DNA of 60,867 nt, from assembly GCA_012026655.1 (NCBI GenBank), contig JAAILG010001860.1:1-60867 (forward strand), read 5' to 3'. Both the position numbers and the translations under genes were made by a program. The first letter of the stretch is position 1. Each line of letters starts with the position of its first letter. This document shows, in pieces, positions 35,782 to 60,867 of this stretch. Source of the stretch: Hydrolagus affinis (Eukaryota). A model generated the notes under the pieces. It saw nothing but the letters and a program-made list of their open reading frames with translations. It searched no databases and was not told where the DNA came from.

Positions 35782-35860
35782 ACTGAAATAAAAACAGAAA
35801 TCGTTGGGAACACGCAGCTGGTCAGGCAGCATCTATGCAGAGAGGAAGATGAGGTAACGT
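35782..35860. mobile_element. Penelope-derived terminal repeat fragment
   Basis: CTGAAATAAAAACAGAAATCGTTGGGAACACGCAGCTGGTCAGGCAGCATCTATG matches the arms at 58379-58424 and 58870-58985. Confidence 0.7.
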
Positions 35861-50659: not shown

Positions 50660-51530
50660 CCTCACTGTTTACTACTTTGCATCATCTGCAAACTTGGAAA
50701 TTCTACTCCCTATACCTAGTCCAGATCATTTATATATACAGCAAAAGCCCGTTTATCAGGCACCTTCCAAAAAGTCGACTAATTGACTATGTCGGATAAT
50801 CAGACGGCAAGTTGCCAAAAACCCAACACAAAAAATTTACTTTTTTTTAAAGCATACCATATTAATAATATACTAAATAGTAACAGAATATTGTATGGAT
50901 ACTTACCAATAAAGATTCCAGCACACTCTGTAAAATGATCTGGTAAAAACCCAGAGTTTGCAATTTTAATAAATGCGCATGCACACACATTGTGTAAAGT
51001 GAGCACACAGTACTCATGATTGCTGGAATGGGGAATTGCCCCGGGAGGAGATCGCGCAATCCGGTTGATCGGGTCACGGATAAATAGGCTTTCCTGTATT
51101 AAGAAGAGTAGTGGTCCCAATACGAATCTCTGCGGGACACCACCACACACATTTCCAGTCAGGAAAACACCCATTCACCACAACTCTGCATTCTGTCTCC
51201 CAGCCAGTTCAGGATCCATGCTGCCACTGTCCCATTAATACCATGGTCATCTATTTTCCTTACAATTCTCTTATGTGGCACTTTGCCAAATGCCTTTTGA
51301 AGGTACATATAAGTTACATTAACTGCACTACTGTCACTCACCCTCCTTTACCTCATCAAAAAACATTATCAGGTTTGCTAGACAAGATTTGCCTTCAAGA
51401 AATCCATGCTGGCTGTCCTTTATTAACCCATATTTTTCTGAGTGAAGATTTATTTTGTCCTGGATTATATTCTCTAGAAGTTTCCCCACTACCGATATAA
51501 GGCTGACTGGCCTGTAGTTCCCAGATTTGA
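50660..51530 (-). mobile_element. CR1 RT fragment split by a MITE
   Basis: Minus strand: NYRPVSL, YMYLQKAFGKVPHKR, GVPQRFVLGPLLFLI, then the MITE, then YINDLD and SKFADD. Confidence 0.9.
50739..51096. mobile_element. Complete Tigger/pogo-type MITE inserted at a TA in CR1
   Basis: TIRs CAGCAAAAGCCCGTTTATC / GATAAATAGGCTTTCCTG with TA on both sides. Removing it rejoins the CR1 motif LFLI-YINDL. Confidence 0.9.
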
Positions 51531-51804
51531 TGAAGAAATCAGTTAAAAGATATAAGCAACAGAGCAGTGTAGGACTATTTTTTTGCCTCAGAATAGATCC
51601 AATGAACAGAATTATTATTTTCTGCTGCTAGATATGCCTTTGTTAATAACTACAGCATATTAACATATTTAGCACAATTGTACTAATTGGGTACACTCAT
51701 TCTCCACACCAGAATTCACATACAAGTTCTATAGGTATAATACAAAGGATTTTTGTGACCATTATCTTATAGTTAAGAATTCCTCAAGAAAAAAACAATA
51801 ATAA

Positions 51805-51965
51805 TATATTGGTCATTTCAATCCATGACTGTTTGTGGGACACTGCTGTGCGTAATTGGCTGCTGCATTTTGCCACAAAGTCAATTAACTTTACAGTATA
51901 ATCTGTGAATTACTTTGAGACATCTAGAAGACATGAAAAGCGCTATATCAAATGCAAGGGATATT
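51805..51965 (+). mobile_element. SINE 3' half abutting the connexin pseudogene
   Basis: TTGGTCATTTCAATCCATGACTGTTTGTGGGACACTGCTGTGCG...GAAAAGCGCTATATCAAATGCAAGGGATATT. Confidence 0.85.
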
Positions 51966-52603
51966 ATCTGGCTTTCCTTCATCTTCAGGATCATGATTCT
52001 TGTGGTAGCGGCAGAGAGTGTGCGGGGCAACGAGCAGTCGGAATTTGTGTGTAACTCTGCAACCTGGCTGCAACAACGTGTGCTATGATCACTACTTCTC
52101 CATCTCTCATATCAGGCTCTGGTGCTTCCAGCTGATCTTTCTGTTTCCACGTCTTCCCTGTTGGTCTCCTTGCATGTCACCTACAAACAGCAAGAAGAGA
52201 AGTAGGTGTTCCAGAAACGCCAGGCACCCTGTTGAGCAAGGATGATGCGGAGGCCCTGAAGAAACAGAAACTGCGAATCGTTGGTGCTTTCTGGTGGACC
52301 TACACTACTAGTATCTTCTTCCGGATTGCTTTTGAATGCGTGTTCACCTATATGTTATTCTTCCTCTACGGGGCATTTCAAATGGCTCACCTGGTTAAGT
52401 GCAGTTCCTCGCCTAATGTGGTGGACTGTTTCATTTTCAGGCCCAACGAGAAGATTGTGTTCATCATGTTCATGGTTATGGTGTCCGGGATCTGCATCCT
52501 ATTCAATGTGGCTGAGTTGCTTTATCTGCTGGCAAAGGCTTGCTCCATCGGGAAGCCGCATCACCCCAACCACATTGAATGCGTAATGCATATGTATGAT
52601 TGA
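51966..52603 (+). pseudogene. Beta-connexin (gap junction protein, GJB2/GJB6-like) pseudogene, 5'-truncated
   Basis: Stitched translation: [30 protein letters not shown] / [28 protein letters not shown] / [20 protein letters not shown] / KKQKLRIVGAFWWTYTTSIFFRIAFE..LVKCSSSPNVVDCFIFRPNEK..SGICILFNVAELLYL. Three frameshifts (~52057, ~52140, ~52230), in-frame TAG at 52203-52205, one EL2 cysteine lost, first ~22 codons absent. Confidence 0.93.
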
Positions 52604-54151: not shown

Positions 54152-54306
54152 ATTGAGGAAGGGTCGTGGACCCAAAATGTTGACTCACTTTTCCTTTCTC
54201 CATGTATCACTTTTCCTTTCTCCAGCTGCCTGACCTGCTGAGTGTTCCCAGCGATTTTTGTTTGTGTTTCAGATTTCCAGCATCAGCCATATTTTATGGT
54301 TTTGTA
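54152..54306 (+). mobile_element. Penelope-derived terminal repeat with degenerate hammerhead motif
   Basis: TGAGGAAGGGTCGTGGACCCAAAATGTTGACTC, then CTGCCTGACCTGCTGAGTGTTCCCAGCGATTT..AGATTTCCAGCATC, homologous to 58427-58529. Confidence 0.7.
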
Positions 54307-56569
54307 TCCCTTGCAATCTACATTTTTAGTTTTCTATCTACAAGTAAATTGTTAAATTAATTCATGCAATATACCTTTCAGGACAAAATAACTTTACATA
54401 GTCATTCTTTCCAATCTCTCAAGATGACTGACACATCTCTAGCCAATAAGATTCACTTGACTTTCATTCACCCAGTCCCCTCTATTTTGCTATAGATGCT
54501 AATCATGATGTTTTGATCCAATTTTTATGGATCAGAATTTAGTCCACATGATAACTATGGATAATATGTAGGCTCACAGGTGAAATTCACTACCAACAGA
54601 GAATTTGTACAACAGAAGAATGGTAAAACTATTTATTTAGTCCCATACCCCTGCTTTTTCACTGTACTTTTTAGTAATATTTTTCTTTTTCAGATACTTC
54701 TGTAATTCAGATGTTTGTCAAATTATTTGTTGCTTCAGGTTATTATTAATTCAGGAAAACTGTTTTTATTATAAAAGGTGTAGACATTCTCTACAAAGTC
54801 TGTGCAGGTTTACCATACTGAAGGCAGTAATTGCTTCCTACATCTTTGTTATAAGATTCATTGTCCTTCAAAACCAGAGCAATTTTGAGCTTTAATTAAA
54901 TTTGTTGTTGTCTATTCTTATTAAAAGCAACCACCATGTTTTAATTAATGTAGTCTTTATTGGTTAGCCATCAACCCATTCTTATTTTAAATTAACTGGC
55001 AGCATTTTAAAATGATATATGAATGTGACATATTCTCACAATAAAGTTGGTCAGGTAATAAATCTTTACATTTAAGATGACCTTGATGCTTCTGTTAAAA
55101 AAAGGCAAATAGTAAAATTAAATTAAAGCAATTACTTAGGACTCATCAGAAATTTAAGAAGCATGTGAGTCTAAGGATATAAACCCAGATGTATCTGGGA
55201 AGCAAAATTTTAAAAAAGGTAAAGCTGGGTTAAAAGTCTGCTGGCCTTTAGTTCGGTAAATGCTTACTAAGTAAGAAGGAAAAATCTGTCAAAAGAATAT
55301 TTTTGTATTAATAATGTTATTAGTACCCTGTGCATTTACTCAATAAATCATTAAAATGTTTTGGGGGGGGGTTGGGGCCGCGGTGTGGGGAGCGAAAAGG
55401 CTGATATCGTTTGCAGGTAAAATAAATAAATTCTGTATAACAAAACCTGACTGTGTTACATTACAAAGATATCAATGTTAGCTCTAGCCATAAGGTCAAG
55501 TGCCCAACAAACATTTAAACTTGACATTCTAATTGGAGATCATTCAAACAATGAAATTGAACAGAATGTCAGTTGGAATTAAAGTAAAGATGACCACAGA
55601 ATTGATCTGTTATCAATAGATATCTGTACCACATTTAATAAATACTATGGTATGTTTGCAAAGCATACTAAATGTCACTTTTTGCTTTTCTACATATGCA
55701 GCAAATGGGAAGGTACATGATAATGTTCCTAAAGTACATGTATTTAAACTGTAAATAGGGCCAGTGTGATAAACGGAATGGATTCTCCTAATCTTTCTTT
55801 CCCATTAAGTGCTCTGAGAGGCTACTCGTGAAACGGGCGCTATACAAATGCAAGTTTTTAGCTAAACATATCATCTGTATTGACGGTAGCTTGCTTCGAA
55901 TTACTGATTCTATTAAAAGATACACAAAGACACCTTCACTTTAATACAGAACAGCGATTAGAGTCATAGTTATAGTTGCAGCAGCTATATGTTCTACATC
56001 TGTAAAATAATGGCCTCATATATTATACTTGTTAACAATAATGTGGCAATATTTCACTGACCTCTCTGTTGAGTATTTCCACACGTTCATCAATTAACAC
56101 TTGACATACTAAAAATTGCTTTCTCTATATTAAAGACAACGTCTGACCACGTTATTTAAAACTCTATTCTTACAATAGTTAGCTCTACCATTTTAAGGAG
56201 AAAGCATAATCTATTGATTTGGCCTGTAATCAGAAATGATATACAGTACTGGTAAGTTTTACATTTTGTAACTACTGGTCGGAGACAGTGTGGAAGCAGA
56301 TAGGCTCAGAATGGTATTAAGCTTTAGAGCAACCCGATTTATCACATGTTCTTCTCTTATTGAAGATTAGACAATTTTCCTGCCAAAGTGGCAGATTGAA
56401 ATGCTTACATACAAATCATGCGAATAAACAATGAGATGTCCCAGCACCTCTGAAAAATGTGACCAGCCATTTCTTATCCACATCTAATGATTTAGAAGAT
56501 ATCTAGAAGACGTGAAAAGCACTACACAAAAATGCAATGATTATTATTTCTACTTTCTGTCCTTCAGCC

Positions 56570-56865
56570 CCGCAGCCCACCATTATCTTTACCATTAATA
56601 CTACTTATGTGGCACTGTATCAAATATTTTTTGAAAGCCTGTGAATAGAACATTCAATGCGTTCTCTTTATCTATATGATTGTTCATTTTCTTGACATAC
56701 TTGACCAAACTGGGGAATCAGAACCTAGCCGTTATAAATCCATGCCAAACGTCACTCACACAGTCATGGCTTTCCATGTTTTCACTAATATTATCCCTCA
56801 TTAGAGTCTCTAGAAATGTACCACCCTACTGATCAAAGAATTGAGTGATCTGTAGTTATCTGGCG
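56570..56865 (-). mobile_element. Degraded CR1 RT fragment
   Basis: Minus strand gives NYRSL, HGFITARF..PQF and FQKIFDTVPHK. Confidence 0.6.
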
Positions 56866-57666
56866 CCTCTTTATTTCCAGAATGCACTTAAGAAATTTCA
56901 GAGTTTAAACATCTGAGAAATCTTCCCTCTGGATAGTCACCTCAGATTATTCATGTCTCTCAAATGATTCATTAAAACTGTAGAGTGCTCATGTCAGTGT
57001 GATATGTATATGGTAGTTGGAAAGAATAGACTTTATAGAACTATGCATAATAGAGATGAATATTCCCTCCACCCCTCCACACACACAAGCACAACGTCTA
57101 TCTCACATCCCCAAATGGCAAAAATGTAAATATTTCTAAGATTTCTTGTCAAAATGACTTATATTTGCTATTAGTGCTATTTTGTCTAATTTTGTTTGTG
57201 TTTTATTTATAAGCTATTTCCATGGTTACGCAGCACCACTTGCAATTTATGAGAATTAATAGGCCTACATTATTCTGACTGAATGGCTTCACCATAAATC
57301 ATTGTTGAAGCACTCTGAGATGCCACCTGACGTGTAGGCCACAAGTTGCTGTCATTGTTGTTGCCATTAATTTCTTAAAGTAAGATTTACATTGTGGTAA
57401 TGAAAAGCAATGAAACATGAAAACAGAATCATTCTGTAAAAGGTCACTATCTTTATTCCTGTAAAACCCATGTAAGCATTTTGAAATCAATGTAACACTA
57501 CAACCTACAGCAGAGATACAATCCAATATCACTTTAGCACCCTAGAAATGTTGAGTTTCAATACTCTTTGAGACAGGGACTCTCTAGATGGATTAGCAGG
57601 CTGTAACAATGGTTTTTCTCATATTGTTTATCCCTAATTTATGCCTTGCTCTTTATTCTCTTCCAG

Positions 57667-57762
57667 GAAAGCATGTCATTTAGTGACAATCTCCCTATGC
57701 TGCGTCTGACACCAACTTGCACTGTTGTGCAGTTGCCAGGAGCCTCCAATGCATTAATTAAG
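57667..57762 (+). other. Candidate 96-nt exon, gene unassigned (ESMSFSDNLPMLRLTPTCTVVQLPGASNALIK)
   Basis: Strong acceptor ccttgctctttattctcttccag| with upstream CTAAT, weak donor AAG|gtacaa. One open frame, phase 0-0. Confidence 0.2.
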
Positions 57763-58344
57763 GTACAATATGTTGGTTTTCCTCATGGTAGGGCAAATCA
57801 ATTAGAAGCTCAACTAAGAATTGACAAACCCCATCACACATACATGTATTAGCTGACAATGAGATTTCAACATCTAACCATACTCAGCATCGTAACTATG
57901 ACACTGCTGAGATGTTTGAAGAGATTTCAGAATTTGAGGGTCTTCACAAGATCCCCTCACATACAGCTGAGAAAGTTGATAATGTGTTTATCATGAGTTA
58001 TTTATGCCATAAAAAATTCATAAGCACAATATACCAAAAACATCAACATGTCACAGATGTGGAAATTTAAACCTAATACTGTACTATCAGATATAGGCAA
58101 CTAAAAATCTTAATAGTCATCAATAAGCAATTTAATTATAATTGTAAATTCTCCATGAATTCTCCTTTATTCCCAAAACCCCAAATCACAAATTTATTTT
58201 CCTTTTTAAAATAAACAACTTCCTTCTGTAAGACACGTATTGGTGCAAACAAAATGGGCAAATTGCCAGCACTCTGATCAAAAAGATTTGCAGAAACTTC
58301 TTTGTTCTATTAAATAGCATAGTGTGTGCAATAATATCCTAAGT

Positions 58345-58526
58345 AAAAATGCAAAATACTGTACTGCAGATGCTGGAAATTTGAAACAAAAACAGAAATC
58401 TCTGGGAACATTCAGCGGGTCGGGTTCTGACGAAGGTTGTGGACCCGAAACGATGACTCACTTTCTTTTCTCCATAAATGTTGCCTGACCTGCTGAGTGT
58501 TCCCAGCGATTTCTGTTTTTGTTTCA
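58345..58526. mobile_element. Short Penelope-derived insertion with inverted arms
   Basis: 12-bp TSD AATATCCTAAGT (58333-58344, 58527-58538). Near-perfect inverted arms 58379-58424 and 58484-58529. Confidence 0.85.
58422..58459 (+). ncRNA. Minimal type I hammerhead ribozyme motif (Penelope-type), mutated at the cleavage triplet
   Basis: GGGUU-CUGACGA-A-GGUU-GUG-GACC-C-GAAA-CG-AU-GACUC: both core boxes present, stem I GGGUU/GACUC, stem II GGUU/GACC. The sister copy near 59135 keeps GAAACGUU. Confidence 0.65.
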
Positions 58527-58863
58527 AATATCCTAAGTGAGCTCAATTGTACACTTGCAAAACATGTATTGAGGAATCAATGGAAAACAAATAATGAAAG
58601 CAAGAAACTTAATTTTGATTTGGTTCTGAATAGCTGATTCAATTTACTTGCTCAAGATTAATTAAAGATACAATTTTATCAACATTTATGCTGCAGTTTC
58701 TAGTCCTACTTTGACAGTCAATGCACTTGGCAAGAGAACAAGAGATTGAACGTTAGGTATGTCCTCCCGAAGCGAAAGGCACTATACAAATGTATTTTTT
58801 TGCTGTTGTTGAGGGTAGATAAGGATTACCATTGCTTGAGGATAAAACGATAGATTCAGTTAA

Positions 58864-59192
58864 CAAAATTGCAAAATACTGCAGATGGTGGAAATCTGAA
58901 AAAAAAACATAAGTTGCTGGGAAAACTCAGCAGGTCAGGCAGCATCTATGGAGAAAGGAAAAGTGAGTCAATGTTTCAGGTCCAAGACACTTTTTTAGAA
59001 GTGGGGTATGTTGGGAGGGTTTTGAGGATTAACAGAGGGGGAGAGGCAGGGCAAGGAAGACAATGGAGAAAATGGGACAGAGGGCAGGAGATCATGGGTT
59101 AAAGAGGTGTCAATGTTGTGAAATGTTGGACCCGAAACGTTGACTCACTTTTCCTTTGTCCGTAGATGCTGCATGACCTGCTGAGTTTTCCC
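58864..59192. mobile_element. Second Penelope-derived insertion with inverted arms
   Basis: 12-bp TSD AGATTCAGTTAA (58852-58863, 59193-59204). Arm ~58917-58985 is the reverse complement of ~59127-59194. Confidence 0.85.
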
Positions 59193-59536
59193 AGATTCAG
59201 TTAAGAAATAGGTTTATATTGCACTGAGAAGATAGGAAAATAAGAAATCTAGAAGGAATATGACCAAGCGTTTTTTTTCGATCTTATTCAATTCAATCCC
59301 TTCTTTAATTCAATTCATGCACTATTTATTTTAGATTCAGCCTACAAGCTGGATGTGAGATGGTGTCTCGCAATCACTGCAGCTTCTGTAGTGTATAGAA
59401 TATATAATTTATATATCAAACTGGTTTAAACAAGACTTCTTGTACATGAATTACCAAACCATTGAAAGTAGTCAGGTCACTTTGATCAAGTCAATGTAAT
59501 TTCAGTCTTGGCTTATTGTTCAAACCATCTGATAAA

Positions 59537-59876
59537 TAAATAATAAATATCCTTGGATTTGATATAGCGCTTTTCACATCTTATCGACGTCTCAAAGCGC
59601 TTCACAGAATATACTGTGAAGTGAATTGACTGAATATTTGTGGGCGAATCGCGGCAGCCAATTGCACACAGCAGTGTCCCACAAACAGTCGTGGATTGAA
59701 ATGACCAATTTTATTATTGTGTTTTTTTTTTGGGAGGGATTATTATTAGGTATGTGGAGTAAGGAAACTTTCCCAAGGTTTCGCCCTGACCTGCCTTAAT
59801 TTGAACACAGGTCTCCCCAGGTTTGTCTCCCCAGCTTGCAAGACAAGTGCTTTAACCACTAAGCCACAGGAGCTCC
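59537..59876 (-). mobile_element. Full-length tRNA-derived SINE with L2-type tail
   Basis: Minus strand GGAGCTCCTGTGGCTTAGTGGTTAAAGCACTTG..GTGTTCAAATT; tail GCGCTTTGAGACGTC..GTGAAAAGCGCTATATCAAAT. Small internal duplication GTCTCCCCAG x2. Confidence 0.85.
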
Positions 59877-60322
59877 ACATCTCAGATGTCACTTGTCTTT
59901 CTTCATCCGAACATGCTGTTGAACATCAGATGTCAATCTATTTAAAATACAAACATCCCAACGGAACCTTTTCCTATAAGAATGCACTTAGTTGCCTTGA
60001 ATGGTTAAAAGAACATGACTGATAGATTCAAGAGACTATTAGTCTCTTTCCTGTATACATTTCCCTTAGGTTCTCCAACTAACTTTACTTACTTCGATTG
60101 AATGTTATATAAGGATGACCTATATATGACCTATAGGAAGATCAAATGAATGCTTTACAGAATTTACAGTCAAATTGTTTTGTCTTGATTCACTAGTTTC
60201 AAAGCTTCTGAATATTAATTTTTAATGTCCCATCAGGCAAAATATCTCAGTATAGAATAACATTGATACATTTCAAAAGAAGAAAAAAAGTCTTTATACA
60301 ATATTTTGATTGAAGTACAATA

Positions 60323-60580
60323 CAGGTACCCCGCCCCCAACCACGGCCTCATTAACTGCGAAACTCACGCATCCATGGTTTGCTAAATGCAACAACCCTT
60401 GCAAACCACGGGTTTTAACACTAACACCAGCGTTTAGCGCTAAGACCCAGTTGCATCAACCAGCCTCGATGTCGCTTCTCGCTAGTTTATAGCACTAGGA
60501 CCCAGTTGCGATGTTGCAATCAACCAGCGACAACGCTTCTCTTTTAGGATTAAGGTAGATAACATAAATTTATTGTCGCA
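60323..60580. mobile_element. Left end of a Tigger/pogo-like DNA element (other end not in window)
   Basis: TA|CAGGTACCCCGCC start resembles the 13739 terminus; AACCACGG subterminal repeats; CpG-rich. Confidence 0.5.
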
Positions 60581-60584
60581 TCTC

Positions 60585-60867
60585 TGCATCCTTCTCTCTC
60601 TGTGTGTAAGCGTATCTCTCTCTGACTCACCTTCTCCCGATTTCACCTTCTCTTCCCCCCACCCCCCTCCCCCACCCCCACTTCTCTCTCTCACCTTCTC
60701 TCTCTGACTCACCTTCTCTTCTCCCCCATCCCCCACCCCCACCCCTACTTCTTTCTCTCACCTTCTCTCTATTTCATTTTCTCTTCCCCCCACCTCCCCC
60801 CTCACCCACCCTCCCTTCTCTCTCTCACTTTCTCTCTCTCACCTTCTCTTCCCCCCACCCTCCCCCT
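60585..60867. repeat. Polypyrimidine minisatellite-like tract (CTCACCTTCTCT / CCCCCCACCC units)
   Basis: Almost entirely C/T, with repeated CTCACCTTCTCT and C-runs, continuing past the window end. Confidence 0.85.

What the first reader, a model, noticed from the sequence alone, without database searches (positions are those of the whole stretch)
58333..58538. ~180-bp Penelope-derived insertion whose inverted arms enclose a minimal hammerhead ribozyme motif
Seen: a 12-bp TSD (AATATCCTAAGT), near-perfect ~46-bp inverted arms, and between them CUGACGA-stem II-GAAA with a closable stem I (GGGUU/GACUC). Established: Penelope-like elements carry minimal type I hammerheads with a very short palindromic stem III that cleave as dimers, and they often insert with inverted terminal segments. 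Inference: this is a tiny non-coding unit mobilised by a Penelope RT, resembling a retrozyme. This copy has GAAACGAU instead of GAAACGUU and is probably inactive.
Basis: partly seen in the sequence, partly recalled or inferred. Interest (0 to 1): 0.72.

Follow-up and report, generated by a model that had tools for sequence, protein, structure and literature searches.

The report
Two-armed Penelope retrotransposon stub
This small hairpin-shaped insertion is real, but it is a one-off, mirror-image stub of a very common Penelope-type jumping gene with a damaged ribozyme motif rather than a self-copying mini-element, and its many sister stubs likely record where that jumping gene's RNA begins and how it is copied into both sides of a DNA cut.

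Summary
Observation confirmed: 12-bp TSD, 43-44-bp inverted arms (91%), a minimal type I hammerhead with GAAACGAU. The parent is a Neptune-type Penelope-like element (PLE) in the same genome: longer copies run into RT, zinc-linker and GIY-YIG coding sequence. The foldback is not a mobile unit. 58 of 60 two-armed insertions have different junctions, and in 53 of 58 one arm ends at +100 and the other at +135 (0 short-short), the known PLE 'tail'. Each target strand therefore likely primed its own cDNA. 5' ends pile up at the front edge of the hammerhead (72 of 179 arms at -7..0, 8 expected), not at its cleavage site (5 seen, 5 expected). ORF-bearing copies stop at the same place, often after an extra G, which points to a capped transcript start (inferred). 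No tandem arrays, so not a retrozyme. This copy's ribozyme is predicted dead: U16.1 to A, one G lost from stem II, and its helices are absent from the predicted fold. The scan already noted this pattern on other genomes and on other pieces of this one. Known class; modest mechanistic interest.

The parts
58333..58344 (+). Left target-site duplication (12 bp)
   Evidence: family TSD control
58345..58381 (-). PLE 'tail', on the inverted arm only: family positions about +102 to +133, with a 5-nt internal duplication; its outer end is the long (L) reverse-transcription start site
   Evidence: tail described in PMC11167929 and 10.1101/2021.04.23.441226
58382..58424 (-). Inverted arm: antisense copy of family positions +59 to +101, truncated at +59; 1-nt microhomology (G 58424) with the forward arm
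58424..58526 (+). Forward arm: family positions -3 to about +101; starts at the 5'-end hot spot and ends at the short (S) start site
58424..58459 (+). Decayed minimal type I hammerhead: native stem I 5' strand GUU 58424-58426, CUGACGA 58427-58433, extra A 58434, stem II 58435-58446 (one G lost), GAAA 58447-58450, U16.1 changed to A at 58453, nominal cleavage site 58454/58455, stem I 3' strand from 58455
58527..58538 (+). Right target-site duplication (12 bp)
58852..59204 (.). Independent sister insertion of the same family: two arms, 12-bp TSD (58852-58863 and 59193-59204), long arm extending about 130 nt upstream of the hammerhead into the 3' UTR

Best explanation
The 182-bp insert is a two-armed stub of an abundant Neptune-type Penelope-like retrotransposon, flanked by a 12-bp target duplication, and was likely made in one insertion event in which the element's enzyme cut both DNA strands and primed a separate cDNA from each end. 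Shown: one arm ends at the short site (+100) and the other at the long site (+135) of the PLE tail; the inner junction differs from copy to copy; the forward arm stops at the 5' edge of the hammerhead, as do most family arms that reach it. Inferred: the RNA template is the front of the element's own transcript, which likely starts (capped) at about -4, right at helix I of the hammerhead. Internal priming at the 5' copy of the tail then yields only 105- or 140-nt cDNAs. Here the cDNA primed at the short site ran to the RNA end, the cDNA primed at the long site stopped at +59, and the two were joined head to head by end-joining. The hammerhead is a passenger: the templates were uncleaved, and this copy is predicted inactive and dead on arrival.
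For: Parent: longer copies continue upstream into GIY-YIG coding sequence. L329 holds a 487-residue stop-free frame with RT (RVT_1 E 1.4e-6), a YIDD motif, a CX4CXXC linker and YIGET. In L323 and L329 the tail runs on into the element's 5' region. 3' ends are bimodal: 80 arms near +100 and 88 near +135 of 183. Two-armed insertions: 53 of 58 pair short with long, 0 short-short, P about 1e-11 against random pairing; 58 distinct junctions in 60. The two arms agree at subfamily sites in 153 of 181 comparisons against 47% shuffled. 5' ends: 72 of 179 at -7..0 (8.4 expected), 5 at +27..+31 (5.2 expected). Genome-wide exact counts fall from 1127 to 119 when 9 upstream bases are added. Copies that carry the internal 5' region and reach the hammerhead stop at -3, -4, -6 or +5 in 4 independent loci, run upstream in 2, and none stops at +29. 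G precedes 30 of 55 ends at -4/-3 against 15 of 102 other ends. 5 independent internal-to-front junctions, none at a GT donor. In vitro precedent: both strands cut and extended, two adjacent internal RT starts equal to the tail, uncleaved RNA used as template (PMC11167929).
Against: No RNA 5' end was mapped, so the transcript start is inferred. Ends are spread over -7 to 0, not one base. The extra G could come from fold-back on helix I (TG precedes 10 of the 13 G-preceded ends at -4), and the G comparison is inflated because one base is excluded by definition at each end. The site also looks like a 3' splice acceptor (pyrimidine tract, then CAG), and 4 of 30 loci stop near a second AG at +157..+162, so a protein road-block remains possible. 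[quoted passage not shown] Pfam scores for RT and GIY-YIG are below the curated cut-offs; the clade call rests on the linker motif, not a tree. The samples favour younger copies because they were anchored on exact patterns.
Confidence: 0.8

Rival explanations
1. The foldback is a small non-autonomous element (MITE-like or retrozyme-like) that is transcribed and mobilised as a unit by the PLE enzyme.
For: The ~180-bp form recurs with TSDs: the 30 best matches to this copy look alike. About 4300 first-look candidates genome-wide.
Against: Those 30 were picked for likeness, and even among them the inner end of the inverted arm varies. 58 distinct junctions in 60. The tail may lie on either arm. 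No tandem arrays. The hammerhead helices have pair probability 0.0 in the folded insert.
Confidence: 0.04
2. The foldback forms at insertion, but the templates are mostly transcripts of short solo copies (a SINE-like monomer with its own internal promoter) rather than the front of full-length PLE RNA.
For: Short copies vastly outnumber ORF-bearing ones (4331 against 110-365 first-look candidates). Internal priming would erase 3' read-through, so solo copies could act as sources unnoticed. An internal promoter is known for the fly Penelope (PMC2377424 passages).
Against: Front-stopped and long arms carry the same two haplotypes in similar ratio (46:47 against 22:13, P 0.23). ORF-linked copies stop at the same place. 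No short-only subfamily was seen, though the test used only two sites.
Confidence: 0.25
3. The 5' pile-up is not a transcript start but a processed end or a road-block: exonuclease trimming that halts at the hammerhead, or splicing factors bound at a 3' splice-site-like sequence that stop the RT.
For: A pyrimidine tract and CAG lie just upstream. The fly Penelope intron ends at helix I (PMC4209133). Ends also cluster near another AG and near the short/long sites in ORF-linked copies.
Against: No common exon sequence upstream, and the TSD often abuts the front directly. Internal-to-front joins lack GT donors. The excess of G before the end fits a cap.
Confidence: 0.25
4. Hammerhead self-cleavage defines the 5' end of the RNA that is copied.
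For: The family has an intact minimal core in 108 of 236 arms, with the ACGU palindrome in 53.
Against: No excess of ends at the cleavage site (5 seen, 5.2 expected); 106 of 179 arms contain the whole ribozyme, so their templates were uncleaved.
Confidence: 0.03

Closest known systems
Insertion units of endonuclease-positive Penelope-like elements: pseudo-LTR, adjacent inverted 5'-truncated copy, one-sided 30-40 bp tail, TSD (Craig et al., 10.1101/2021.04.23.441226, passages; Arkhipova et al. 2013, PMC3846280, passages)
   Same: Head-to-head inverted copy, tail on one end only, 9-16 bp TSD, hammerhead in the terminal repeat, parent with C-terminal GIY-YIG and zinc-linker (Neptune/Nematis type).
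   Different: This is the shortest form, with no coding sequence. The strict short/long pairing and the 5' pile-up at helix I are quantified here; I did not find them stated in the passages read.
PAc (Poseidon of Anolis carolinensis) mechanism, Frangieh et al. 2024, PMC11167929 (abstract, main text and part of the methods read)
   Same: Two adjacent internal RT start sites equal to the tail, both target strands cut and extended, AT-rich targets (TSDs 71% A+T here), uncleaved RNA as template.
   Different: Different clade; here the ORF appears to start about 45 nt after the tail, not inside the hammerhead. In vitro the two strands showed no difference in start site, whereas single insertions here use one site each.
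Minimal hammerheads (min-HHR) of metazoan PLEs, Cervera and de la Pena 2014, PMC4209133 (results and discussion read)
   Same: Extra nucleotide after A9, G10.1-C11.1 pair, palindromic 15.2-16.2, 4-bp helix I; mostly lone motifs in truncated PLEs, some pairs on opposite strands 100-700 bp apart.
   Different: Helix II is 4-5 bp rather than 7-8 bp; the window copy has lost U16.1 and one stem II base.
Animal non-LTR retrozymes (PMC7229834, passages; bioRxiv 10.64898/2026.07.22.740005, parts 1-3 of 5)
   Same: Short, non-coding, PLE-related, type I hammerhead.
   Different: Retrozymes are head-to-tail tandem arrays whose ribozymes release monomers that circularise; this family is dispersed, inverted rather than tandem, with a minimal rather than canonical ribozyme.

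Membership tests
EN+ Penelope-like elements | Single ORF with RT followed by GIY-YIG endonuclease, linked to this terminal sequence | tested here: met
   Walk through overlapping loci; L329 frame. Pfam scores are below cut-off; the motifs were read directly.
EN+ Penelope-like elements | Terminal repeat overlaps both ends (pseudo-LTR) with an optional 30-40 bp tail | tested here: met
   Tail continues into the 5' region in L323, L329 and others; 3' ends at about +100 and +135.
EN+ Penelope-like elements | Inverted 5'-truncated copy and target-site duplication | tested here: met
   37 of 93 set-B arms have an adjacent inverted arm; TSD control.
Neptune clade | CX2-5CxxC zinc-linker between RT and endonuclease (shared with Nematis) | tested here: met
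   CX4CXXC in L057, L256, L329; criterion.
Neptune clade | RT phylogeny groups with Neptune | not tested
   No reference PLE proteins were on hand; no tree built.
Minimal type I hammerhead (family consensus) | CUGANGA and GAAA boxes, helix I and II, palindromic 15.1-16.1 | tested here: met
   93 descriptor hits in 1.94 Mb, 0 in 0.65 Mb shuffled.
Minimal type I hammerhead (this copy) | Intact core including U16.1 and foldable helices | tested here: not met
   A at 16.1, one G lost from stem II, fails the descriptor, helix pair probabilities 0.0.
Minimal type I hammerhead | Compensatory changes in helices I and II | tested here: inconclusive
   Changes are mostly CpG decay and one-sided; no second family with different stems was found.
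Minimal type I hammerhead | Self-cleavage as a dimer | not testable with these tools
   Needs in vitro transcription.
Non-LTR retrozymes | Head-to-tail tandem repeats with a hammerhead in each unit | tested here: not met
   2 same-strand neighbours within 600 nt among 210 arms, both separated by PLE 3' sequence; the sample was 1.4 Mb, not the whole genome.
Non-LTR retrozymes | Circular monomer RNAs | not testable with these tools
   No suitable RNA data.
MITE-like fixed foldback element | Constant internal junction and symmetric ends across copies | tested here: not met

The most novel reading that the evidence does not exclude
These stubs are a genome-wide fossil record of PLE integration: one ribonucleoprotein primes the two strands of a cut at two fixed sites of the 5' copy of the tail, one each, runs to a capped RNA end that coincides with the first base of hammerhead helix I, and can jump from that end into internal sequence, which would explain inverted arms, the one-sided tail and pseudo-LTR formation, and would mean the ribozyme sits at the transcript's 5' end without cutting the templates that get inserted.
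Probability: 0.5. Interest if true: 0.55.

Novelty: new member of a known kind. Interest (0 to 1): 0.3.

Why it matters
As an object it is ordinary: one of thousands of dead PLE stubs. Its value is statistical. How Penelope-like elements integrate, and what their hammerheads do, is still open (PMC11167929; passages). The short/long pairing and the 5' pile-up give direct, testable predictions: a transcript start at helix I, one start site per strand, and no need for ribozyme cleavage. It also warns annotators not to call such hairpins microRNA precursors, MITEs or retrozymes.

Tried and rejected
Rfam: no hammerhead match at E up to 10; mir-3913 rejected as a hairpin artefact. Cleavage-site hot spot: a first pass gave 17 of 179 ends at +27..+31, but my reference carried a CpG-decayed base at +26; after correction the excess vanished (5 against 5.2). 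Spliced first exon upstream of the hammerhead: rejected, no shared upstream sequence and no GT donors. Arms copied from different RNAs (lead from note e1-9321724): no support; discordance at the two cleanest sites (6 of 84) equals ordinary arm-to-arm divergence (337 of 3653), though RNAs from one source locus cannot be told apart. Covariation: uninformative within one decaying family. RNA: no RNA holder listed. Raw reads of an organism whose relation to this genome is not given cover the front on both strands, about 200-fold deeper than the internal region, with no sharp start at the front, which fits passive transcription of many copies and says nothing on the start site. No solved structure matched the RT frame. 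No tRNA gene in 55000-60867. Literature: five searches found no paper describing the short/long pairing or the 5' pile-up; subscription journals, Repbase/Dfam entries, figures and the supplements of PMC11167929 (its Fig. S2 maps genomic ends) were not seen and may already show them.

Full report
Observation. The insert lies between two copies of a 12-bp sequence at 58333-58344 and 58527-58538. The arms pair at 39 of 43 positions and the insert folds far better than shuffles (z = -12). Three details differ. The first two G of the proposed stem I come from the inverted arm; the family helix I is AGUU/GACU. One G of stem II is missing. The left arm is 37 nt longer than the right.

Family and parent. 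A search of the 1.11-Gb genome gave 4331 first-look candidates, 40 scored. An exact 34-nt hammerhead pattern has 301 matches and an exact 33-nt downstream pattern 1815, controls 0. Longer copies continue upstream through a pyrimidine-rich 3' UTR into a GIY-YIG domain. Walking further reached a zinc-linker, thumb and RT. L329 holds a 487-residue stop-free frame with RT (RVT_1, E 1.4e-6, 28.6 bits, below the 29.6 cut-off), YIDD, a CX4CXXC linker and YIGET. GIY-YIG scored only E 0.015-0.077 on fragments. The linker marks Neptune or Nematis according to Craig et al. (passages); no tree was built. In L323 and L329 the tail runs on into the element's 5' region, so the same sequence sits at both ends: a pseudo-LTR.

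Samples. Positions count from C3 of CUGA as 0. Set A is the first 90 of the 301 hammerhead matches. Set B is 93 arms anchored at +52..+85, from 90 loci taken from the first 100 listed of 1815. Both favour young copies. For 5' ends I used all 259 arms in these loci and the window, dropping 80 that were chosen on the hammerhead pattern or lay at an edge, leaving 179.

3' ends and pairing. 80 of 183 arms end near +100 and 88 near +135: the 30-40 nt PLE tail, which Frangieh et al. showed in vitro to be the distance between two internal RT start sites (PMC11167929). Among 58 two-armed insertions with both ends scored, 53 pair a short with a long arm, 5 were scored long-long (all with intermediate ends) and none short-short; P is about 1e-11 against random pairing. 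The junctions are 58 distinct in 60. The two arms share subfamily letters in 153 of 181 comparisons against 47% when shuffled. TSDs of 7 bp or more flank 99 of 183 arms against 10.9 in shuffles. The foldback is therefore built at insertion, from one source, with one start site per strand. That the two strands of the cut each prime a cDNA is inferred from this pattern and from the in vitro paper, which however saw no strand difference in start site.

5' ends. 72 of 179 arms stop at -7..0 against 8.4 expected, 34 run further upstream, and 5 stop at +27..+31 around the cleavage site against 5.2 expected. An apparent excess at the cleavage site was an artefact of my reference. Genome-wide, exact matches fall from 1127 to 119 when nine upstream bases are required; ordinary divergence would explain only part of that fall. 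Of 30 loci with the internal 5' region, those that reach the hammerhead stop at -3 (four loci sharing one flank, counted once), -4, -6 and +5, two run upstream, and none stops at +29; the others stop further in. Five independent copies of 136 tested show internal sequence joined straight to the front, none at a GT donor; L340 is one such TSD-flanked case. G precedes 30 of 55 ends at -4/-3 against 15 of 102 elsewhere, as copying of a cap would give (recalled from LINE biology, no call), although fold-back on helix I can also supply it. The simplest reading is that the element's RNA starts at helix I, that priming at the 5' copy of the tail gives 105- or 140-nt cDNAs, and that the enzyme can jump from the RNA end. 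This is inference; a trimmed end or a road-block at a splice-acceptor-like site is not excluded. An internal promoter is documented for the fly Penelope (PMC2377424, passages).

Ribozyme. The family fits the minimal type I hammerhead of Cervera and de la Pena (PMC4209133): intact core in 108 of 236 arms not chosen on the exact pattern; 93 descriptor hits in 1.94 Mb and none in 0.65 Mb shuffled. Variation is mostly CpG decay, with no compensatory pairs, so covariation is untested rather than refuted. The window copy fails the descriptor, and in the folded insert the hammerhead helices have pair probability 0.0.

Not a retrozyme. Retrozymes are tandem arrays (PMC7229834 passages; bioRxiv 10.64898/2026.07.22.740005 parts 1-3). 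Of 210 hammerhead-bearing arms, 2 had a same-strand neighbour within 600 nt and 26 an opposite-strand one. Front-stopped and long arms carry the same two haplotypes (46:47 and 22:13, P 0.23), so no separate short family is evident, although transcribed solo copies could still act as sources.

Comparison and novelty. The inverted truncated copy, one-sided tail and TSD are described features of PLE insertions, and lone or opposite-strand minimal hammerheads were noted in 2014. Five literature searches did not turn up the short/long pairing or the 5' pile-up, but figures, supplements and repeat databases were not seen. The scan's own notes report the same reading on other genomes and on other pieces of this one; I had reached it before opening them and tested it independently. 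RNA data gave nothing usable on the start site. Verdict: a real feature, a new member of a known kind, interest 0.3; the mechanistic reading would deserve about 0.55 if confirmed.

Noticed in passing
window 58852-59204: A second two-armed insertion of the same family only 313 bp away, with its own 12-bp TSD; the long arm carries the tail and reaches about -131, the other arm is cut short at both ends.
   Followed up: partly
window 54154-54295 (+) and 35784-35853 (-): Two more solo, older arms of the family, no clear TSD found.
   Followed up: partly
window about 51950-52603 (+): Connexin-like coding fragment (Pfam Connexin E 1e-28) with a frameshift near 52200 and no start of the gene; a dispersed repeat lies just upstream. 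Looks like a broken connexin pseudogene.
   Followed up: partly
window 51337-51627 (-): Reverse-transcriptase fragment (RVT_1 E 2e-6), probably a LINE remnant.
   Followed up: no
window 59529-59870 and about ten related places: Abundant dispersed repeat with a weak tRNA-like match at 59790-59870, probably a tRNA-derived SINE.
   Followed up: no
L331-L360: 5' ends of copies carrying the internal 5' region also cluster at +86..+108 (9 of 30 loci), +130..+135 (3) and +157..+162 (4), that is at the two RT start sites and before an AG ahead of the likely start codon; a bound protein may block the RT there.
   Followed up: partly
L326, L332, L335, L336/L340, L345: Internal PLE sequence joined directly to the front of the hammerhead unit, as if the RT jumped from the RNA 5' end into the body of the element; a possible route to pseudo-LTR formation.
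   Followed up: partly
solo arms in sets A and B: Short fillers at the 5' junction often repeat flanking DNA or mirror the first bases of the element, as expected from end-joining repair or fold-back priming.
   Followed up: no
L256 and L245: Both PLE copies share about 700 bp of unrelated upstream sequence, possibly another repeat fused to or carried with the element.
   Followed up: no
window 60615-60867: Tandem repeat of about 82-bp period running to the end of the window.
   Followed up: no
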